Origin: Candidatus Nealsonbacteria bacterium
GTDB taxonomy: Bacteria > Patescibacteriota > Minisyncoccia > Minisyncoccales > RBG-13-36-15
Assembly (NCBI GenBank): GCA_011050465.1
Contig: DRFQ01000001.1
Span: 180,860 to 228,183 of the forward strand
DNA: 47,324 bases
Direction of reading: 5' to 3'
The translations under genes and the position numbers were made by a program. This document shows, piece by piece, positions 14,028-45,014 of this stretch; position 1 is the first letter of the stretch; each line of letters begins with the position of its first letter. A model generated the notes under the pieces. That model saw only the letters and a program-made list of their open reading frames with translations. It made no database searches and was not told where the DNA came from.

Positions 14028-14084
14028 GTTTAAAAAAAATTTATACCTTCGGCATGATTCACCCCGCACTATTTTTAAACTCTG

Positions 14085-14156
14085 TGTCCCTGGAGGGATT
14101 CGAACCCCCAACAACAGTTCCGAAGACTGTTGTGATATCCATTTCACCACAGGGAC
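14085..14156 (-). tRNA. tRNA-Arg (anticodon TCG)
   Basis: GTCCCTG/CAGGGAC acceptor, anticodon loop CTTCGGA, T-loop TTCGAAT. Confidence 0.9.
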
Positions 14157-14396
14157 AAAAAGTACGGGGTAAAAACCTTAATGATACTTGCCCCGCACCA
14201 AGTTTTGTTCCGATGTGCGGTTGCATTATACTACGAGGGCGTCTTTATTTTATCAAAATCATTGTCCTTCGGCAAGCTCAGGACAATCGTTCGACTGAGC
14301 TCACGACTCGAAGTCCTGAGTTAATCGAACGGATTGAAAAAAACAAGCTTTTGAATTAAGATTAAATTGTTGACATATGAGTTTAATGTAAATTAT

Positions 14397-15854: not shown

Positions 15855-15906
15855 GCAATTAAGCAAACCAGTCGCTTCGCTTCTTGTAATTGCAGAGCAA
15901 TTAAGT
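15855..15906 (-). repeat. Copy of the 47-49-bp intergenic repeat (inverted orientation)
   Basis: GCAAACCAGTCGCTTCGCTTCTTGTAATTGCAGAGCAATTAAG matches the reverse complement of the 25196 unit. Confidence 0.75.
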
Positions 15907-15972
15907 AAGACACGCTCTGCTTTCCAGCGAGAAGCAAGCTCATTTCTTCGCGAGTTGCCCCGCACTAAAATT

Positions 15973-16833: not shown

Positions 16834-17337
16834 GTGTTCTTTAGAAGGCCCAAGAGAAATAGAGTTCTTTTTTTGATAGATTTTGAAAATATCCTGAAGA
16901 ATCTTAAGCAGTTGCCTTCGCCAGAAGATCTTTCTTTTTTGGCGGGATTTGACCGGATTGTCAAAGAAATCGCCAGAGAAATAGGCGAAATTGTTGATGT
17001 CTTTATTTTTTTGCCGCCTCATCTGGCCAGCATCTATGGAGAGGACCTTTACCGGGCAGGCTTTTTCATTATAGTTTGTCCGAAAGTAAGAGACAAAGCA
17101 GGAGAACAAATAGACACAACGGACGAGACCTTGATCAGATTCGGTCAGAGAGCTATTGATGAGCTTAATATAACCCATCTATGCCTGGGGAGCGGAGACA
17201 AAGACTTTGGCCCTTTGGTTCGACGAGCCACCCGAAAAGGACTGAAAATCATTATTGCGACTGCTTCACAGCAATCATTAGCAACAGAACTGATCACGTT
17301 GGCCGACAGGATTTTCTTTTATTCACCCACTGAATAG
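16834..17337 (+). CDS. NYN-domain (LabA/DUF88-like) predicted RNase, second copy in the window
   Basis: GTG start 6 nt after AGGAGG. Motifs LFLIDFENI, DTTDETL, LGSGDKDFGPLVRRATRKGLKIIIA. Confidence 0.75.
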   Translation: MFFRRPKRNRVLFLIDFENILKNLKQLPSPEDLSFLAGFDRIVKEIAREIGEIVDVFIFLPPHLASIYGEDLYRAGFFIIVCPKVRDKAGEQIDTTDETLIRFGQRAIDELNITHLCLGSGDKDFGPLVRRATRKGLKIIIATASQQSLATELITLADRIFFYSPTE

Positions 17338-17364
17338 TGGGTATTTATAAATGCGTAGCAAGTA

Positions 17365-17397
17365 GGCAGCGAGAGCAATCTCGCTGCCCTTTTATTT
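17365..17397 (+). terminator. Intrinsic terminator after the NYN gene
   Basis: GGCAGCGAGA-gcaa-TCTCGCTGCC followed by CTTTTATTT. Confidence 0.8.
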
Positions 17398-17409
17398 ATA
17401 AAATTGCTC

Positions 17410-17437
17410 TTGACAAATTTCCTTATTTTGTTATAAT
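17410..17437 (+). promoter_or_regulatory. Near-consensus promoter TTGACA-16-(TGT)TATAAT for the G+C-rich orphan gene
   Basis: TTGACA at 17410-17415 and an extended -10 TGTTATAAT ending at 17437. Confidence 0.65.
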
Positions 17438-17516
17438 TATAATATTGTTCTTTTGCAATTCGCTGCGGGATTTACCATGTTTGTTTCATTTCTGTAAGGA
17501 AGAAAGGGAAAGTCAG

Positions 17517-18923
17517 ATGGCAAGACAAAAGGGTATTCGTCTCCATGAGCTAGACCCAGATCAGTTCGGCCCGGAAGAAGATCTCCCGGACAACTCCCGG
17601 CACGGTTCCAACGATGACTCCGTAGTCGAGGAGGAGGCGGGGTTGGTTCCCTCTCCTAAGCTGCCGGACGTCAGCAGCACCTTGCTCGCTGACGAGACGG
17701 TGGCCGACAAAGTCCGGGAGGGGGCCGAGAAGGTTAGAACCTGGGTAAAGGCCACTTTGGCCGCGTTGAGCCAGGTCGCCCGGGGTTCGCGGGAACTCCA
17801 GGAGATCAGAGCGCCAGCGGTGGCTGAGGCTGAGAGGAAGCTTAATCGTTTCCTCAAAGAGGAAGAAATGCCGGCTTACAGGCGGGCAGCCTGGCTCGGT
17901 CTCTTCGATTTTGAGTTCTCTCAAGAGCTCAAAAACCGGGAAGAGGTGAAGGGTCTTCTCTCTCGTTTGGTCGCAGAGGGTCGTCTCGTTGAGACGACCG
18001 ATGGCCCCATCAAGGGCTATAAGGATAAGGCCGATGAGCCAGAGCCGGCCTACGCCTTTTCCGACGAGGCCCAGTTCGGAGATCCAGAAATGTGGGAGGT
18101 TTCGAGCCTCTACCGGCAATGCCGGCAGAGGGCTTGGGAGGCCACAGGGAAGGCCCGGACCGACGAGGCCCGAGAGCTTATGAAGCAGAGCGAGCTCTCG
18201 GTGGAGGAGTTTCTCGAAGGCAAGCCCGGCATCTTCACGATCGGCATCCCGCCAGAGCCGATCGTGAACCTTACGACAGACAGTATTATAGCCTGGCGAG
18301 GTGGCGGCACTCTCCAGGTCAAGAGCGACGGCCAGAAGATTTTTCCTTTGGCCGCCACCGGTAATATCCAGGCGTCTGTTCAGGAGGCCAAGGAACTCAA
18401 GGTTCATCTCTTCAGGGATTTCCTGAGTTGGGAGACCCCTCCTTTCATCAAGGAGCTTCCCATAGAGATGGCCAAGAAGATTCAGCTTCTCTGGCACCTT
18501 TTGCAGCGCGGACTCCGTGCCGCGGAGGAGACACGGCAGCTTCAGGCCGTTAAGGATGAGATGGCCATCCTGGTAACCGTCACTCCCTCAGAGTTTTTCC
18601 TGGAGGACAAACCAGGCATCTGTCTGGCGGAGTACCGAGGGATCTGGGAGGAGCTGGTTCCAGACGAGGAGAAGGTTAACCGGCGTCCCAATCTGTTCTT
18701 CTCTGTAGAGAGGTTCAGTCAGGAGGGAGAAGAAGGTGACCAGATGTTCATTCGTCTGGTTCAGGTTCCTGATCACCTCGGAGACTTTTTTGAGGCTTGT
18801 TCTGGCGAGTATCCCGAGGGCGAGCAGTTCGGGGGTTGTCCGCAGCCTTTGCGGGCAGTTCTCCGGGCCATCTACGGGCAGACCATGAAGGCTGCCCAGC
18901 TCAACGGCAAAACCAACGGCTAG
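17517..18923 (+). CDS. G+C-rich orphan protein (468 aa) of unknown function, compositionally foreign
   Basis: ATG preceded by GGAAGAAAGGGAAAG. 468 uninterrupted codons at about 62% G+C (hand counts). Codon choice is GAG/AAG/CTC/GCC, unlike the neighbours. Has its own promoter and terminator. Confidence 0.8.
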   Translation: MARQKGIRLHELDPDQFGPEEDLPDNSRHGSNDDSVVEEEAGLVPSPKLPDVSSTLLADETVADKVREGAEKVRTWVKATLAALSQVARGSRELQEIRAPAVAEAERKLNRFLKEEEMPAYRRAAWLGLFDFEFSQELKNREEVKGLLSRLVAEGRLVETTDGPIKGYKDKADEPEPAYAFSDEAQFGDPEMWEVSSLYRQCRQRAWEATGKARTDEARELMKQSELSVEEFLEGKPGIFTIGIPPEPIVNLTTDSIIAWRGGGTLQVKSDGQKIFPLAATGNIQASVQEAKELKVHLFRDFLSWETPPFIKELPIEMAKKIQLLWHLLQRGLRAAEETRQLQAVKDEMAILVTVTPSEFFLEDKPGICLAEYRGIWEELVPDEEKVNRRPNLFFSVERFSQEGEEGDQMFIRLVQVPDHLGDFFEACSGEYPEGEQFGGCPQPLRAVLRAIYGQTMKAAQLNGKTNG

Positions 18924-21133: not shown

Positions 21134-21208
21134 GCGCGTGTAGCTCAACTGGTTAGAGCTCCGAGCTTATACCTCGGCGGTTTCCAGGTTCGAGTCCTGG
21201 CACGCGCA
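21134..21208 (+). tRNA. tRNA-Ile (anticodon TAT)
   Basis: GCGCGTG/CACGCGC acceptor, anticodon stem CCGAG/CTCGG, loop CTTATAC. The variable region is 6 nt. Confidence 0.8.
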
Positions 21209-21330
21209 TGTTTTAGTATGGGGTTCGAGCCAGAGCACTGAAGTATTTTAGTGCTTCGGTGTCCTGGTCCACCCACGCGCACAACGGAAATAAGAAGTTT
21301 CCTTGGTGTTTATGTTGAGCGCAATGAGGA

Positions 21331-23343: not shown

Positions 23344-23526
23344 TAAGGGCGTGCCCCGTTAGAAGTTGTGTGAAATTTGACTATTACTAAAGTTTTTTCG
23401 AAACTATTTTTCTATGGAAATTTCCTTAATTACCAGAACTTCTAACGGGGCGTGTAGCTCAACTGGTCTACCCGCCAAAATTTTGCGGAGCAAGACTTAG
23501 GCGGATTAAGAGCGCCCCGCCCTTTT

Positions 23527-23599
23527 GGGCAGCTAGCTCAATGGTTAGAGCGTTTGGTTTACATCCAAGAGGTTAGAGGTTCGAGTCCTCTGCTGCCCA
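23527..23599 (+). tRNA. tRNA-Val (anticodon TAC)
   Basis: GGGCAGC/GCTGCCC acceptor, loop TTTACAT, T-loop TTCGAGT. Confidence 0.9.
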
Positions 23600-23689
23600 T
23601 AAAAATAAAAGGGGCGGGAAGGTTTCGGGCCTGTCCCGTAGTCAACCGAAGGTTGTACTTCGGTGCTCTGATCCTGACACGTCCACCAG

Positions 23690-23762: not shown

Positions 23763-23808
23763 CCTCGTCGCTTCGCTCCTCGGTGTAAACTTTTACAAAA
23801 CTAAAAAT

Positions 23809-24166: not shown

Positions 24167-24357
24167 TATAAAGAAGGGGCGGGGGTTCTGTACCAATCCT
24201 GGGTTGTTGTATTGGAGTTACAACGGCTTGAGTCGATAGGCGGCTTCGCCTTACAGCCCCTAAAAATTCACAATACCTATCGGGATTGGTACGGGGTGAG
24301 CATTCCCATCACCCGCCCCAAAGACCAAAGGACTAACCACCAATCAAGCTAAAACCC

Positions 24358-24965: not shown

Positions 24966-25000
24966 TAAAAAAGCCCGCACCACACGGTGCGGGTTTTTTT
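24966..25000 (+). terminator. Intrinsic terminator (GCCCGCACC-acac-GGTGCGGGT + T7)
   Basis: Perfect 9-bp G+C-rich stem followed by TTTTTTT. It shares its stem sequence with hairpins in the tRNA clusters. Confidence 0.85.
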
Positions 25001-25171: not shown

Positions 25172-25195
25172 AACATTTATTTTAGTATTTTTTTA

Positions 25196-25293
25196 TTAAT
25201 TGCGGTAGCAATTACAAGGAGGAGCGAAGCGACGACTGGTTTGCTTAATTGCGGTAGCAATTACAAGGAGGAGCGAAGCGACGACTGGTTTGT
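25196..25293 (+). repeat. Tandem duplication (2 x 49 bp) of the intergenic repeat family
   Basis: TTAATTGCGGTAGCAATTACAAGGAGGAGCGAAGCGACGACTGGTTTGC twice; the last base differs. Confidence 0.9.
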
Positions 25294-25301
25294 ATTTTCT
25301 T

Positions 25302-27866: not shown

Positions 27867-27952
27867 CCAGAGCACTAAAAGTTTTTAGTGCCAAAACACT
27901 AAAATACTTTAGTGCTCGGCCGAGCACATAAGATAAATTTTATGTGCTCTGG
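27867..27952. repeat. Inverted-repeat-bounded cluster of three hairpins (CCAGAGCAC ... GTGCTCTGG)
   Basis: GCACTAAAA-g-TTTTTAGTGC, CACTAAA-atac-TTTAGTG, GAGCACATAA-gataaatt-TTATGTGCTC. Shares CCAGAGCACT with 21230. Confidence 0.6.
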
Positions 27953-28008
27953 TTCGAACTCTTGATGACTTTTAACTATGGTGGTTTTTTTGCGACCCCG
28001 TAAGAAAG

Positions 28009-28244: not shown

Positions 28245-29201
28245 TTAGATATTAAGCAAAAAGTCATTATCAATTGATATTTTTCGGGGCAAAAAGAAAG
28301 AAAAATTATTCCCGCCACGGAAAACCAGCGTTTTAGCAAGCTTGCCAAAGAAAATTTTTGGGAGGAAAAAAATACTGGCTTCACGGCGATATCTATCAAA
28401 ATCGGGGAAATTTTTTATTAGAATATTAGCCGCAGTTAACCCCCAAATTATTCCTCCTCCAGACCAAGGTTTGGTTAGGCCGGCAGCATCGCCGCAGAGA
28501 GTAATATTTTTATTTTTCGGTAAAATTAAACTCTGGGGAACTATGGCTGACTTCAATTCACTTTGGTGAAAATTTATTTTCTGGTTTTGACAAAATTTTT
28601 CAAATTTTTTCTTGATAGAATTCAAAGATCCCAAGGCCCCATATTCAACATGAGAACCTCGGGGAATTTTCCAAAAAAACCCTTCTTTTATCGGCCAAGC
28701 CCTGACATAATCTGAAGAGTCTTTGATTGGTAAAAAGAACTGAAGGCCGAGTCGGAAAAAGGGTTGCGATAAAGAAAGTTTTTTTCTTATTTTTGACAAA
28801 GCTCCATCGCAACCGATAACCTTATCAAACCCAGACGGAATTTCATTAACCGATTGATCTAATAAAATTTTTACTCCTGATTTTTGAGCAAGATCAAAAA
28901 GGAATTCAGTGAGTTTTCGGCGATTTATAACCAAATATGTCGGATTTAAATTTAAGGCTACAGTCTTTTTAGGAAAGTGAATAAGGCAAGCATTAATCTT
29001 GTTCTCAATTAAAGATTGGTTGAGGGGAAAGAAACTTCTTAATCTTTCAGATATTAACGATGAACAAATTTTTTCTTCGATTCCACTCTTTTTTTCAAGG
29101 ACAGTAACTTTATGGCCAATTTGAGACAATTGCCAGGCCAAATAAAGACCGATTATTCCTGCTCCAACAATAACAGTGTTCTGAGGTTTGTTTTGGCTCA
29201 T
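28245..29201 (-). CDS. FAD-dependent oxidoreductase (geranylgeranyl-reductase-like)
   Basis: N-terminal VIVGAGIIGLYLAWQLSQIGHKVTVLEKK Rossmann motif and GDAAG near the C-terminus. Confidence 0.8.
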   Translation of the reverse strand: MSQNKPQNTVIVGAGIIGLYLAWQLSQIGHKVTVLEKKSGIEEKICSSLISERLRSFFPLNQSLIENKINACLIHFPKKTVALNLNPTYLVINRRKLTEFLFDLAQKSGVKILLDQSVNEIPSGFDKVIGCDGALSKIRKKLSLSQPFFRLGLQFFLPIKDSSDYVRAWPIKEGFFWKIPRGSHVEYGALGSLNSIKKKFEKFCQNQKINFHQSELKSAIVPQSLILPKNKNITLCGDAAGLTKPWSGGGIIWGLTAANILIKNFPDFDRYRREASIFFLPKIFFGKLAKTLVFRGGNNFSFFLPRKISIDNDFLLNI

Positions 29202-29341
29202 TTAAGGTTTTTTAACTTTTGAATTTAATCCCGTCCTTCGCGAAACGGGGGCGGGGAAGCCTGTGGACTTGGGGGGAACTCGAACCCCCGATTCCGCACC
29301 AGAACAAGTTCGGTACGAGGCAACCTCTTCTTAAATTTCTA

Positions 29342-29412
29342 TGGACCCACGGGGAATTGAACCCCGGACTCGTCCATGCCATGGACGCGTGTTACCCCTA
29401 TACCATGGGCCC
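29342..29412 (-). tRNA. tRNA-Ala (anticodon GGC)
   Basis: GGGCCCA/TGGGTCC acceptor with G3:U70, loop ATGGCAT, T-loop TTCAATT. Confidence 0.82.
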
Positions 29413-29544
29413 ATGTGTCCCCGAAAGGAGTCCGAACTTAGGCCTTGCGCTAGAGCCAAGCTCAGTGCGGGGTAAAAGCCTCTTGCCTGCCGTGCACCAT
29501 ATCTTTATGTCTTCCCGGGAGGAGTTCTCACCCCGTCCTTTTTA

Positions 29545-29617
29545 TGCCCTCGGGAGGAATCGAACCTCCATTAGCGGCTTAGGAGTCCGCGGTTCTAATC
29601 CGTTGAACTACGAGGGC
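29545..29617 (-). tRNA. tRNA-Arg (anticodon CCT)
   Basis: GCCCTCG/CGAGGGC acceptor, loop CTCCTAA, T-loop TTCGATT. Confidence 0.88.
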
Positions 29618-29873
29618 AAAAGTGGCGGGGCGGGCTCCCCAACCTTCTCCTTAGGACGAAGCCGTTCTATTTGCCCCGCACCGAACTTGTTCTGGTGCGG
29701 GATCCAATTGAGCTGCGAGGAGATATTGGTGCGGATTGTTCTACTTGCCCCGCACTTAAATGCAAAGCATTTATAGTGTCGGGGTCCGTTGAACCATGGG
29801 GGGCAAATTCAAAATTATAATATCAAATTTCTTTCTTGTTGACAAGCTTTCTCTCTGTTATAATTGATGTGTA

Positions 29874-33485: not shown

Positions 33486-33517
33486 ATAAAATATTTCTCA
33501 CCTTGCATCACAATTTG

Positions 33518-33589
33518 TGCCCTCAGGAGGAATCGAACCCCCATTGCAGACTTAGAAGGTCCGTGTTCTATCCGTTGAACTATGAGGGC
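33518..33589 (-). tRNA. tRNA-Arg (anticodon TCT)
   Basis: GCCCTCA/TGAGGGC acceptor, loop CTTCTAA, T-loop TTCGATT. Confidence 0.88.
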
Positions 33590-44730: not shown

Positions 44731-45014
44731 AATTTAGGCGGGTGAAGGAGCGCTTGGCCCGAGCCCGCCCCGCACCAATTTTGCCTTTTCAAGCTACACT
44801 TTAGTTTAAATAATTAAGAGAAGCGGAATTAAGCTTTTGAGACACATATTACACGAATAGTGTGGTCCGCCTTCGGCGGACTGGGCTATTCGTCCACCGT
44901 GTGTCGTTACTGAATAGATGGCGAAATTGGTGCGGGGTGAGAAATCTCGGCATCCCGAAAGTTGATTTTTAGTGCGGGGCGGGAAGTCCGGGAATTACGA
45001 CTGAGAATTCCGGT

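What the first reader, a model, noticed from the sequence alone, without database searches (positions are those of the whole stretch)
29268..29805. Two intact tRNAs nested among tRNA fragments and copies of a CCCGCACC/GGTGCGGG hairpin
Read on the minus strand, the region starts with a tRNA 5' fragment, GCCCCCCATGGTTCAACGGA (29785-29804; compare GCCCTCGTAGTTCAACGGA of tRNA-Arg), fused to the hairpin CCCCGACACT...AGTGCGGGG. A second 5' fragment follows, CTCCTCGCAGCTCAATTGGAT, fused to the hairpin CCCGCACC-agaacaagttc-GGTGCGGG.

Next come tRNA-Arg(CCT), a 130-nt G+C-rich spacer and tRNA-Ala(GGC). Then comes a degenerate copy of the same hairpin whose 21-nt core is identical and in inverted orientation (29294-29314 is a perfect reverse complement of 29680-29700). 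The region ends with a T-arm/acceptor-like 3' fragment, GGGGGTTCGAGTTCCCC-CCAAGTC (about 29268-29293).

In both 5' fragments the break falls right after the D-loop GG. This could be the scar of repeated insertion and recombination at tRNA genes, or an unrecognised kind of disrupted or split tRNA organisation.
Basis: partly seen in the sequence, partly recalled or inferred. Interest (0 to 1): 0.65.

Follow-up and report, generated by a model that had tools for sequence, protein, structure and literature searches.

The report
Nested dead tRNA genes, palindromic element
In this ultra-small (CPR/Parcubacteria) bacterium, a working tRNA-Arg gene sits inside the broken remains of two older tRNA-Arg genes, and every break is filled by a 33-base palindromic repeat that is scattered through many CPR genomes, even inside essential protein genes.

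Summary
The region is one tRNA transcription unit on the minus strand, with a promoter at 29845-29817.

In four relatives the same promoter is followed directly by tRNA-Arg(CCT) and tRNA-Ala(GGC). Here that resident tRNA-Arg gene ("shell b") is broken. Inside it lies a second dead tRNA-Arg(CCT) ("shell c"), and inside c lies the live tRNA-Arg(CCT). Most of the "130-nt spacer" is the 3' remainder of the two shells.

Every break holds a copy, or the two separated arms, of one GC-rich palindromic element, PE. Its consensus is CCCCGCACC-AGAACAAGTTC-GGTRCGGGG-YARR, 33 nt. Its 21-nt core occurs in more than 120 metagenome contigs, about 60% of them inside open reading frames, for example as an exact 11-residue insertion in ribosomal protein uL3.

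The same layout, a cognate tRNA nested in a tRNA shell bounded by PE arms, recurs in Ryanbacteria, Terrybacteria, Moranbacteria and other CPR contigs.

Best reading: these are scars of a small mobile palindrome that sometimes carries a tRNA gene. A functional split tRNA is not supported. How the element moves is unknown.

The parts
29817..29845 (-). Promoter-like site TTGTCA-17 nt-TATTAT with TG (extended -10). It is the same promoter that directly precedes tRNA-Arg(CCT) in relative L007.
29785..29804 (-). Shell b, 5' piece (acceptor 5' strand, D-stem 5' strand and D-loop up to GGA). It is the orthologue of the resident tRNA-Arg(CCT) of relatives L007/L009 (17/19 identical).
29744..29784 (-). 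PE1: an empty palindromic element in the D-loop of shell b, CCCCGACACT..AGTGCGGGG plus tail CAAG.
29736..29743 (-). Shell b continues with TAGAACAA (D-stem 3' strand and positions 26-27), 8/8 identical to L007/L009.
29723..29735 (-). PE2 left arm TCCGCACC plus AATAT. It opens the insertion that holds shell c and the live tRNA-Arg.
29702..29722 (-). Shell c, 5' piece CTCCTCG-CA-GCTC-AATTGGAT.
29670..29701 (-). PE3: a canonical empty PE (CCCGCACC-AGAACAAGTTC-GGTGCGGGG-CAAA) in the D-loop of shell c. Its 21-nt core is shared with more than 120 metagenome contigs.
29636..29669 (-). Shell c body: D-stem 3' strand TAGAAC, anticodon arm GCTTC-GTCCTAA-GGAGA (anticodon CCT), variable AGGTT, T-stem 5' strand GGGGA.
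29618..29635 (-). GCCCG, PE4 left arm CCCCGCCAC and TTTT leader, inside the T-loop of shell c.
29545..29617 (-). Live tRNA-Arg(CCT).
29524..29544 (-). Trailer TAAAAAG, PE4 right arm GACGGGGTG, then AGAAC.
29510..29523 (-). Shell c 3' end: T-stem 3' strand TCCTC, acceptor 3' strand CGGGAAG (pairs 6/7 with CTCCTCG), then A.
   Evidence: (D3)
29486..29509 (-). CATAAAGATAT, PE2 right arm GGTGCACGG and tail CAGG. It closes the insertion in shell b.
29416..29485 (-). Shell b 3' remainder: CAAGAGGCT; a solo PE arm TTTACCCCGCACT (29476-29464) where the anticodon should be; GCTCTAG; a decayed T-arm; and the acceptor 3' strand CGGGGAC plus A. It ends 3 nt before tRNA-Ala, as in relatives.
   Evidence: (score 57 vs null 37+-5, 0/300 for L009; 7/300 for L007)
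29342..29412 (-). Live tRNA-Ala(GGC), with G3:U70.
29293..29323 (-). PE6: a copy of the same PE in inverted orientation (TTGC-CTCGTACC-GAACTTGTTCT-GGTGCGGA). Close strains carry the canonical arm at 29315 and 29318.
29264..29289 (-). Relic 3' end of a tRNA-Ala-like gene (T-arm GGGGG-TTCGAGT-TCCCC plus CCAAGTCCA). Its 5' partner was not identified.
   Evidence: (D2)

Best explanation
The region is a single tRNA operon of a Parcubacteria (CPR) bacterium. Its resident tRNA-Arg(CCT) gene has been overwritten twice, which leaves a Russian-doll arrangement: shell b [ shell c [ live tRNA-Arg(CCT) ] ], followed by tRNA-Ala(GGC).

The two "5' fragments" are the 5' parts of two dead tRNA-Arg(CCT) genes. 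Their 3' parts make up most of the "spacer". Each break in a shell falls in a part of the tRNA cloverleaf that is normally unpaired: the D-loop, the junction at position 26/27, the anticodon loop, or the T-loop. Each break is occupied either by a whole copy of a 33-nt GC-rich palindromic element (PE) or by its two arms with other DNA between them.

Shown:
- the tiling of the locus;
- the orthology of shell b with the plain gene of relatives;
- the PE family and its wide dispersal, including in-frame copies in essential genes;
- the recurrence of cognate tRNA-in-tRNA nests bounded by PE arms in other CPR lineages.

Inferred:
- PE is a small non-autonomous mobile palindrome.
- Copies whose arms flank a tRNA gene move that gene as cargo.
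- An insertion that destroys an essential tRNA gene survives only if the cargo is a working tRNA of the same identity. This would explain why outer and inner genes are always cognate.
- The shells then decay. Recombination between shell and inner copies can remove one side, leaving lone 5' or 3' relics such as the Ala-like piece at 29264-29289.

The two live tRNAs are presumably released from the roughly 560-nt precursor by the ordinary RNase P and 3'-end pathways. The PE arms form leader-trailer helices that may be incidental.
For: - **Orthology.** Relatives L006-L009 keep the synteny HtrA | tRNA-Arg(CCT), tRNA-Ala(GGC) | FAD-oxidoreductase. They have plain genes and at most one PE motif in 36 kb. 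L007 has the same promoter followed directly by GCCCCCATAGTTCAACGGATAGAACAAGAG.... The window has the same pieces split by insertions.
- **Shell b 3' remainder.** It aligns to the relatives' tRNA above null (0/300 and 7/300 shuffles) and ends 3 nt before tRNA-Ala, as in relatives.
- **Shell c.** It has an anticodon loop with CCT, a T-stem GGGGA/TCCTC that brackets the live gene, and acceptor strands pairing 6/7.
- **PE is a dispersed element.** There are more than 120 contigs with the exact 21-mer and 108 unique contexts. Conservation ends sharply, giving a 33-nt unit with no stop codon in any frame. 65 of 108 copies lie in stop-free spans of at least 150 aa. One copy is an exact 11-residue insertion in uL3 relative to solved structures. 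Others lie in ValRS, HolA, IspG, TopA and a MiaB-like gene.
- **Cognate nests elsewhere.**
  - L011 outer tRNA-Asp becomes a perfect ARAGORN tRNA-Asp(GTC) once its two insertions are removed in silico.
  - L011 Met and L099 Leu have 7/7 outer acceptor stems.
  - L131 (Ryanbacteria) carries a nest at the syntenic tRNA-Arg(CCT).
  - L139 (Terrybacteria) carries one at tRNA-Arg(TCG), like window 14040-14245.
  - L140/L142 carry Phe and Pro nests, and L132 a Pro nest.
- **Relaxed constraint.** A close-strain contig has 16 differences over 29132-29693 and none in the 144 nt of the two live tRNAs (binomial P about 0.009).
- **No lone-hairpin tRNAs.** Removing single PE-like hairpins (123 candidates) never recreates a tRNA, so there is no sign of tRNA genes interrupted only by a hairpin.
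- **Alleles are diverged.** b, c and the live gene differ in acceptor and anticodon stems, so they are not fresh local duplicates.
Against: - No transposase or recombinase is linked to PE. None is annotated within 10 kb of the locus.
- No target-site duplication is evident.
- No presence/absence polymorphism of a PE was seen among close strains.
- The arms assigned to PE2 and PE4 are degenerate, at 6/8 and 6/7 pairs.
- The leader layout is very regular across distant lineages: acceptor-like 7-mer, D-arm, hairpin ending GGGGCAAG, then CCCCGCAC a few bases before the tRNA.
- Window locus a and Terrybacteria L139 differ by two double compensatory changes in the outer acceptor helix. This could mean selection for structure rather than decay.
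- Nearly all shells carry a D-loop hairpin, which is more regular than random secondary hits would predict.
- The live tRNA-Arg(CCT) is closest (85%) to the genome's own tRNA-Arg(TCT). This fits a local origin as well as an imported cassette.
- The 3' relic at 29264-29289 has no identified 5' partner.
Confidence: 0.55

Rival explanations
1. Local duplication and recombination only. Tandem or partial duplications of the tRNA genes, driven by slippage or template switching at the GC hairpins, followed by random loss, produced the nested fragments. No tRNA-carrying mobile unit is involved.
For: - The live tRNA-Arg(CCT) is 85% identical to the genome's own tRNA-Arg(TCT), closer than to any Arg(CCT) of relatives.
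- The shell c 3' end resembles the 3' end of the live gene (D3).
- No transposase was found.
Against: - b, c and the live gene differ in acceptor, anticodon and T stems, so they are old or foreign alleles.
- Every junction coincides with PE arms of conserved sequence. The same junction motifs are found in distant lineages with other tRNAs.
- Ryanbacteria L131 has the c-type piece outside and the b-type gene inside, the reverse of the window.
Confidence: 0.2
2. Functional precursor architecture. The tRNA-like shells and the leader-trailer helices (CCCCGCAC/GTGCGGGG) are selected parts of the pre-tRNA. They would act as a natural tRNA scaffold or as processing and stability stems, for example for RNase III, RNase P or exonuclease protection.
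For: - The arms lie 2-15 nt from the mature ends, with U-rich and A-rich linkers that extend the acceptor helix.
- Arm variants stay complementary: CCCCGTCACC/GGTGACGGGG, CCCCGTTAAAT/ATTTAACGGGG, CCCCGCCC/GGGCGGGG.
- There are two compensatory changes in the outer acceptor helix between the window and L139.
- The predicted fold of the transcript is much more stable than shuffles (z = -6.2) and pairs the PE3 region with the PE6 region.
Against: - Four close relatives express the same tRNAs without any of it.
- The outer helices are decayed in L140 and L142.
- The shells lose loops and vary between close strains.
- The same element sits inside protein-coding genes, where a role in pre-tRNA processing makes no sense.
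Confidence: 0.15
3. A true split or intron-containing tRNA. The fragments would be exons joined after the hairpins and nested genes are removed, as in archaeal intron-containing, split or permuted tRNAs.
For: - The breaks fall in loops.
- The outer tRNA-Asp of L011 is perfect once its two insertions are removed in silico.
Against: - The organism is a bacterium: IF-2, RbfA, bL19, FtsH and type IV pilus genes are present.
- The junctions start directly with the hairpin stem, with no 3-nt bulge / 4-bp helix / 3-nt bulge (by inspection).
- Shell b lacks an anticodon and shell c lacks a T-loop.
- ARAGORN finds no tRNA in spliced versions of shell c (shell b was not spliced because its anticodon is gone).
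- An intact cognate gene is always nested inside.
- There is no group I intron signal in Rfam.
Confidence: 0.03
4. An invertible DNA switch. The two inverted PE copies (29290-29323 and 29671-29704) would be crossover sites for a recombinase that flips the 347-bp segment carrying both tRNA genes relative to the promoter.
For: - The two copies share a perfect 21-bp core in inverted orientation.
- PE is a near-perfect palindrome around a central AA, like the sites of serine invertases.
- In L029 a large serine recombinase gene lies between two inverted PE-bearing repeats.
Against: - No strand-changing joints were seen in eight runs, although only contigs were available.
- There is no recombinase near the locus.
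- Most PE copies are solitary.
Confidence: 0.03
5. Chance similarity or assembly artefact.
For: The sequence is GC-rich and of low complexity, and metagenome assemblies can be chimeric.
Against: - Independent assemblies agree.
- Motif enrichment has P about 9e-9.
- There is a 34-nt repeat at 91%.
- The same architecture occurs in named genomes.
Confidence: 0.01

Closest known systems
Rickettsia palindromic elements (RPE) (own knowledge; reviewed in PMC10969869 and PMC1779305, which were listed but not read)
   Same: Short palindromic repeats that spread through a reduced genome, insert in frame into protein-coding genes without stop codons, and also land in RNA genes.
   Different: PE is far shorter (33 nt against roughly 100-150 bp). 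It has an unrelated sequence, occurs in CPR bacteria, is shared across many lineages, and here brackets whole tRNA genes. Sequence relatedness to RPE was not tested.
REP/BIME elements mobilised by RAYT (Y1) transposases (PMC3733652; own knowledge)
   Same: GC-rich imperfect palindromes of 20-40 bp with many copies, occurring in both orientations and as facing pairs. Some PE variants end in CTACGGGG, which recalls the GTAG tag.
   Different: REPs are extragenic, whereas about 60% of PE contexts are inside open reading frames. No RAYT gene was looked for or found, and the canonical PE lacks a GTAG/CGTC head.
MITEs and mobile insertion cassettes (terminal inverted repeats flanking a passenger gene, no transposase) (PMC10969869; own knowledge)
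   Same: Conserved inverted termini, variable interior, non-autonomous. "Loaded" PEs look like cassettes with a tRNA as passenger.
   Different: No target-site duplication and no partner transposase have been identified. The termini are only 9 nt, and the empty form is a bare hairpin.
tRNA-Thr fragment plus mobile element plus replacement tRNA in Caldiarchaeum subterraneum (PMC3293823, abstract read)
   Same: A 5' fragment of a tRNA gene lies upstream of an intact cognate tRNA gene, with mobile DNA between them. [quoted passage not shown]
   Different: That case is archaeal, with a 1.8-kb element encoding a recombinase and tRNAs carrying spliceable introns. Here the organism is bacterial, the elements are 33-250 nt with no enzyme gene, both halves of the old gene are retained, and the nesting is repeated.
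Archaeal and algal disrupted tRNA genes: non-canonical introns, split and permuted tRNAs (PMC4090602, PMC3218864, PMC3978253; listed, not read; own knowledge)
   Same: Interruptions at the D-loop, anticodon loop and T-loop, and related intervening sequences at different sites.
   Different: Those depend on bulge-helix-bulge junctions and a splicing endonuclease and yield functional tRNAs. Here there is no such motif, and the interrupted genes look dead.
Integrative elements that target tRNA genes and leave a duplicated tRNA segment (attL/attR) (own knowledge)
   Same: An intact tRNA with a partial copy of its 3' end nearby, such as the Ala-like relic here and the relics after tRNA-Gly(GCC) and tRNA-Ile(TAT).
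   Different: There is no integrase and no island. 5' relics are also present, and complete genes are nested.

Membership tests
Archaeal-type intron-containing / split tRNA | Bulge-helix-bulge motif at each exon-intron junction | tested here: not met
   By inspection of the junctions, the hairpin stem starts at the junction. No 3-nt bulges flank a 4-bp helix.
Archaeal-type intron-containing / split tRNA | Joined exons give a complete cloverleaf with an anticodon | tested here: not met
   Spliced versions of shell c are not called by ARAGORN. Shell b was not spliced because it has no anticodon. The feature is met only for L011 outer tRNA-Asp, in another genome.
Archaeal-type intron-containing / split tRNA | Host encodes a tRNA splicing endonuclease | not tested
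   The organism is bacterial by gene content. The rest of the genome was not available.
Group I intron in a bacterial tRNA | Insertion of at least about 200 nt in the anticodon loop with a conserved catalytic core | tested here: not met
   There is no Intron_gpI match in Rfam, even at E up to 10. The insertions are 32-41 nt hairpins or contain tRNA genes.
tmRNA (3' fragment) | Match to the tmRNA covariance model; tag reading frame | tested here: not met
   Only an 8.4-bit local T-arm match against a gathering score of 47. ARAGORN finds no tmRNA.
REP/BIME | Imperfect palindrome of 20-40 bp in many copies | tested here: met
REP/BIME | Extragenic location | tested here: not met
   65 of 108 copies lie in stop-free spans of at least 150 aa. 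There are insertions in uL3, ValRS, TopA and other genes.
REP/BIME | GTAG or CGTC tag and a cognate RAYT transposase | tested here: inconclusive
   The canonical PE has no tag. The variants in L011, L132 and L139 have GTAG..CTAC next to the CCCC/GGGG ends. RAYT was not searched for.
MITE / mobile insertion cassette | Conserved terminal inverted repeats around a variable interior or passenger | tested here: met
   Termini CCCC(G)../..CGGGG-YARR are shared by hairpins with different interiors and by units that enclose tRNAs.
MITE / mobile insertion cassette | Target-site duplication | tested here: inconclusive
   Clean junctions against the uninterrupted relatives show none for PE1. There is a possible CAA repeat at PE2.
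MITE / mobile insertion cassette | Insertion polymorphism or a partner transposase | tested here: inconclusive
   The element is present at orthologous loci in some lineages and absent in closer relatives. No polymorphism was seen among close strains. The only nearby enzyme seen is a large serine recombinase in L029.
RPE-like in-frame palindromic element | Insertion in protein genes that keeps the reading frame open | tested here: met
   33 nt equals 11 codons, with no stop in 6 frames and all three forward frames used. There is an exact 11-residue insertion in uL3.
RPE-like in-frame palindromic element | Sequence relatedness to Rickettsia RPE families | not tested
   No RPE sequences were at hand. 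Size and host differ.
Integrative element at a tRNA gene | Integrase gene and direct repeats of the tRNA 3' segment bounding an island | tested here: not met
   No integrase or recombinase family appears among the genes within 10 kb. The relics bound only tens to hundreds of bases.

The most novel reading that the evidence does not exclude
PE-bracketed tRNA genes may be mobile cassettes that are tolerated only when they land in the resident gene of the same identity, or that home to it. CPR bacteria would then repeatedly overwrite and exchange tRNA alleles, possibly across lineages. The Russian-doll shells would be a readable record of successive replacements. The same 33-nt palindrome would be a translatable selfish element that invades essential protein genes of these minimal genomes.
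Probability: 0.35. Interest if true: 0.8.

Novelty: new variant of a known kind. Interest (0 to 1): 0.62.

Why it matters
CPR bacteria have tiny genomes, usually with one copy of each tRNA gene. If small palindromes can break such genes, and the damage is rescued by a tRNA carried between the element's arms, that would be an unreported route of tRNA gene turnover and perhaps of horizontal tRNA exchange.

The 33-nt element also adds 11 residues to ribosomal protein uL3, ValRS, topoisomerase I and other core proteins. This matters for annotation, for protein structure models, and for ideas about selfish DNA in reduced genomes.

There are practical consequences too. Gene callers annotate a spurious 185-aa ORF across this locus. 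tRNA finders do not report the shells, so tRNA pseudogene content in CPR genomes may be under-counted.

Tried and rejected
- **ARAGORN with introns allowed.** It found no intron-containing tRNA in the locus. The six extra calls elsewhere have poor stems and are taken as false positives.
- **tmRNA or two-piece tmRNA for the 3' fragment.** Rejected: 8.4 bits, and no tag frame was seen by inspection.
- **Trans- or cis-splicing through the 21-nt complementarity, as in Nanoarchaeum.** Rejected: the joined product lacks an anticodon arm and the acceptor strands do not pair.
- **Terminator/antiterminator leader.** A U-run follows the second hairpin only in some loci, and the scan found no terminator-like site.
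- **Phage origin.** The 21-mer is absent from viral contigs.
- **tRNA genes interrupted only by a hairpin.** 123 candidates were deleted in silico and none gave a tRNA.
- **Literature.** No paper in the library prints the 20-mer, and keyword searches found nothing on CPR palindromic elements or nested bacterial tRNAs. This does not prove the phenomenon is unpublished.
- **RNA evidence.** One metatranscriptome (X13) has contigs across the spacer and across the promoter. They cannot be told from DNA carry-over.
- **A 5' partner for the relic at 29264-29289.** GCTTGG at 29461-29456 pairs 6 bp with it, but a match of that size is expected by chance. The question was left open.
Full report
**1. What is in the sequence**

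ARAGORN and Rfam call tRNA-Arg(CCT) at 29545-29617 and tRNA-Ala(GGC) at 29342-29412, and nothing else reaches any Rfam threshold.

The repeat finder gives a 34-nt inverted repeat, 29290-29323 against 29671-29704, at 91% with a perfect 21-nt core. It also gives direct similarities of fragment 1 to the 5' end of tRNA-Arg and of the 3' fragment to the T-arm of tRNA-Ala.

The octamer GTGCGGGG/CCCCGCAC occurs 9 times in 47 kb against 0.27 expected. All 9 copies lie within 160 nt of a tRNA gene (P about 9e-9).

The locus is identical in JGI, ENA, NCBI and Logan assemblies. Strains at 95-99% identity keep the architecture.

**2. Organism and relatives**

The neighbouring genes are IF-2, RbfA, bL19, FtsH, type IV pilus genes, HtrA and DUF4446. 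They are bacterial, and homologues of the flanking FAD-oxidoreductase are labelled Parcubacteria or Nealsonbacteria.

Four relatives (60-72% protein identity) keep the synteny HtrA | tRNA-Arg(CCT), tRNA-Ala(GGC) | oxidoreductase. Their genes are plain, with no fragments and no hairpins. They hold one copy of the octamer in 36 kb.

In L007 the promoter ttgtcaacaag..tattataat.. is followed directly by GCCCCCATAGTTCAACGGATAGAACAAGAGACTCCTAAGCTCTAG.... In the window the same promoter (TTGTCA-17-TATTAT with TG) is followed by GCCCCCCATGGTTCAACGGA, a 41-nt hairpin, and then TAGAACAA. Fragment 1 is therefore the orthologue of the resident tRNA-Arg(CCT).

**3. Tiling of the locus**

The following pieces cover 29804-29264 without gaps.

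| Piece | Coordinates | Content |
|---|---|---|
| Shell b, 5' | 29804-29785 | Acceptor 5' strand, D-arm up to GGA |
| PE1 | 29784-29744 | Hairpin plus CAAG |
| Shell b | 29743-29736 | TAGAACAA |
| PE2 left arm | 29735-29728, then 29727-29723 | TCCGCACC, then AATAT |
| Shell c, 5' | 29722-29702 | CTCCTCG-CA-GCTC-AATTGGAT |
| PE3 | 29701-29670 | Canonical hairpin |
| Shell c body | 29669-29636 | D-stem 3' strand; anticodon arm with loop GTCCTAA (anticodon CCT); AGGTT; T-stem 5' strand GGGGA |
| PE4 left arm | 29635-29618 | GCCCG, CCCCGCCAC, TTTT |
| Live tRNA-Arg(CCT) | 29617-29545 | |
| PE4 right arm | 29544-29524 | TAAAAAG, GACGGGGTG, AGAAC |
| Shell c, 3' | 29523-29510 | T-stem 3' strand TCCTC, acceptor 3' strand CGGGAAG, A |
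| PE2 right arm | 29509-29486 | CATAAAGATAT, GGTGCACGG, tail CAGG |
| Shell b, 3' remainder | 29485-29416 | See below |
| Spacer | 29415-29413 | CAT |
| Live tRNA-Ala(GGC) | 29412-29342 | |
| Linker | 29341-29324 | 18 nt |
| PE6 | 29323-29293 | Inverted copy |
| Linker | 29292-29290 | ATC |
| Ala-like 3' relic | 29289-29264 | |

Pairing checks give shell c acceptor 6/7, T-stem 5/5 and anticodon stem 4/5. Shell b gives D-stem 4/4, anticodon stem 4/5 and acceptor 5/7.

I masked the cargo of PE2 and aligned the L009 and L007 tRNAs to the remaining pieces, allowing free long gaps. The scores were 57 and 48 against nulls of about 36 +/- 5, reached by 0/300 and 7/300 shuffles. The aligned blocks were CAAGAGGCT, GCTCTAG, GTTC and GACTCCTTTCGGGGACA. 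The last of these ends 3 nt before tRNA-Ala, as in the relatives.

Most of the "130-nt spacer" is thus the 3' end of shell c plus the 3' two-thirds of shell b. In shell b the anticodon has been replaced by a solo arm, TTTACCCCGCACT.

**4. The hairpin is a dispersed element**

It is absent from viral contigs.

Over 108 unique contexts, conservation starts and stops sharply. The unit is CCCCGCACC-AGAACAAGTTC-GGT(A/G)CGGG(G/A)-(C/T)A(A/G)(G/A), which is 33 nt or 11 codons, with no stop codon in any of the six frames.

Sixty-five of the 108 copies lie in stop-free spans of at least 150 aa. Examples are ValRS, HolA, IspG, topoisomerase I, uL3 and a MiaB-like protein. Against solved ribosome structures, the uL3 copy is an exact 11-residue insertion, PRTRTSSVQGK. 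All three forward frames are used.

Fifteen of 123 copies lie within 300 nt of a tRNA gene, often about 50 nt downstream.

Variants with other interiors share the ends CCCC.. and ..CGGGG-CAAG. In the window, the terminator of tRNA-Leu(TAA) uses the same stem.

**5. The nested arrangement recurs**

All of the following nests are cognate, meaning the outer shell and the inner gene have the same tRNA identity.

- **Window, tRNA-Arg(TCG), 14245-14040.** GCCCTCGTAGTATAATGCAA, a hairpin, CAAG, TTTTTACCCCGTACT, TTTT, the tRNA, an A-rich stretch, GTGCGGGG, a degenerate T-arm and CGAAGGT.
- **Terrybacteria L139, same tRNA.** The same layout, with outer acceptor strands GCGCCTG/CGGGCGC.
- **Window, tRNA-Val(TAC).** It sits in a Val-like shell, GGGCGTG../..CACGTCC-A-CCA.
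- **Ryanbacteria L131.** At the syntenic tRNA-Arg(CCT) it has a c-type leader plus PE plus CCCCGCACC in front of a b-type gene, the reverse order of the window.
- **L011.** It has an outer tRNA-Met around an inner tRNA-Met (acceptor 7/7). It also has an outer tRNA-Asp whose two insertions, once removed in silico, leave a perfect ARAGORN tRNA-Asp(GTC). The larger insertion splits the anticodon and contains an intact tRNA-Asp between CCCCGCACC and GGTGCGGGG.
- **Others.** L099 (Leu), L132 and L142 (Pro), and L140/L142 (Phe) follow the same plan.

**6. Interpretation**

The simplest account is that PE is a small mobile palindrome. Some copies enclose a tRNA gene between their arms. An insertion into a single-copy tRNA gene persists only when the cargo replaces the lost function. 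In this locus that happened twice.

Supporting the view that the shells are dead:
- they have lost their loops;
- spliced versions of shell c are not recognised as tRNAs;
- deleting single hairpins never recreates a tRNA in 123 trials;
- a close-strain contig shows 16 differences over 560 nt with none in the two live tRNAs.

Lone relics can be explained by recombination between a shell and its inner copy. Examples are the Ala-like piece here and the 3' pieces after tRNA-Gly(GCC) and tRNA-Ile(TAT).

The mobility itself, its enzyme and its target choice are inferences. No transposase is nearby, no target duplication is evident, and no polymorphism was seen among close strains. A large serine recombinase lies between inverted PE-bearing repeats in L029, which is only a lead.

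**7. Rivals**

- **A functional processing scaffold** is not excluded. The arms flank the mature ends closely and arm variants stay complementary. The window and L139 differ by two compensatory pairs in the outer acceptor helix. The predicted fold pairs the PE3 region with the PE6 region (z = -6.2). Against it, relatives do without all of this, and the same element sits inside proteins.
- **Purely local duplication** fits the 85% identity of the live tRNA-Arg(CCT) to the genome's tRNA-Arg(TCT). It does not explain the conserved junction motifs across lineages.
- **A spliced split tRNA, an invertible switch and an artefact** are all unlikely, for the reasons given in the rival entries.

**8. 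Comparison with what is known**

- In behaviour PE resembles Rickettsia palindromic elements and MITEs.
- It fails the "extragenic" criterion of REPs.
- The nearest precedent for a tRNA fragment plus mobile DNA plus a replacement tRNA is archaeal: Caldiarchaeum tRNA-Thr (PMC3293823).
- I found no report of a 33-nt CPR element or of nested cognate bacterial tRNA genes in the library. This does not prove there is none.

I rate the finding as a new variant of a known kind.

Noticed in passing
window 14040-14245 (-): tRNA-Arg(TCG) lies inside a tRNA-like shell with a D-loop hairpin and CCCCGTAC/GTGCGGGG arms. Terrybacteria L139 has the same layout at the same tRNA, and its outer acceptor helix differs by two compensatory pairs.
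   Followed up: partly
window 23436-23688 (+); L008 8579-8669 (-): tRNA-Val(TAC) is nested in a Val-like shell whose 3' part (about 90 nt, with CCA encoded) lies between tRNA-Val and tRNA-Phe. Relative L008 has a homologous 90-nt segment at the same place, with a hairpin that changed on both sides (CCGAAG/CTTCGG against CCGGTG/CACCGG).
   Followed up: partly
window 24167-24325 (+): After tRNA-Gly(GCC) there is a roughly 150-nt long hairpin, GGGGCGGGGG..CCCGCCCC. It ends with a 13-nt copy of the tRNA's own 3' end, TCCCATCACCCGC.
   Followed up: no
window 21209-21290 (+) and 27920-27965: A second hairpin family, AGAGCAC..GTGCT(T/C)CGG, sits in T-loop-like relics after tRNA-Ile(TAT) and after tRNA-Ser(CGA). 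The Ile relic repeats the acceptor 3' strand CACGCGCA.
   Followed up: no
window 44731-45014 (+): Between tRNA-Pro(TGG) and tRNA-Gly(TCC), a roughly 150-nt structured segment (44777-44927) lies between CCCCGCACC and GGTGCGGGG. It has no Rfam match at the gathering threshold. Two more GTGCGGGG copies follow.
   Followed up: no
window 24970-24995 (-): The terminator of tRNA-Leu(TAA) is CCCGCACC-GTGT-GGTGCGGG followed by TTTTTT. It uses the same stem as the palindromic element.
   Followed up: no
window 17337-18923 (+): A 528-aa ORF at about 58% G+C sits in a 38% G+C genome and has no Pfam family. It follows a NYN-domain gene and looks foreign.
   Followed up: partly
window 29219-29776 (+): A 185-aa ORF is called by gene finders in public assemblies across the tRNA locus. 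It exists only because the tRNAs and the element lack stop codons, and it is almost certainly spurious.
   Followed up: partly
L029 3597-5463: A large serine recombinase (Resolvase, Recombinase and zinc-ribbon domains) lies between two inverted repeats of about 150 bp that carry the element. tRNA-Ser(GCT) lies about 60 nt beyond one repeat. No tRNA is called beside the other repeat, which is followed only by a short sequence resembling the reverse complement of a tRNA 3' end. The 3' end of the gene reads through the element.
   Followed up: partly
L087, L015, L082, L057, L010/L027, L049: The 33-nt element is inserted in frame in uL3, ValRS, topoisomerase I, IspG, the DNA polymerase III delta subunit and a MiaB-like protein of various CPR contigs. 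In orthologous HolA genes that have diverged, the element is conserved while its flanks are not.
   Followed up: partly
window 29545-29617 vs 33517-33589: The live tRNA-Arg(CCT) is 85% identical to the genome's own tRNA-Arg(TCT). It is closer to that than to any tRNA-Arg(CCT) of relatives (75-79%). This suggests a paralogous origin, a common donor or gene conversion.
   Followed up: partly
window 25190-25300, 15880-15945, 23765-23785: Another short repeat, ..CAGTCGTCGCTTCGCTCCTCC..TGTAATTGC..GCAATTAA.., recurs next to tRNA genes and is tandemly duplicated upstream of tRNA-Cys.
   Followed up: no
window 21134-21208 (+): A tRNA-Ile with anticodon TAT is encoded, which is uncommon in bacteria. 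The window holds 19 tRNA genes in 47 kb, many with C at the wobble position and most (about 16 of 19) without an encoded CCA.
   Followed up: no
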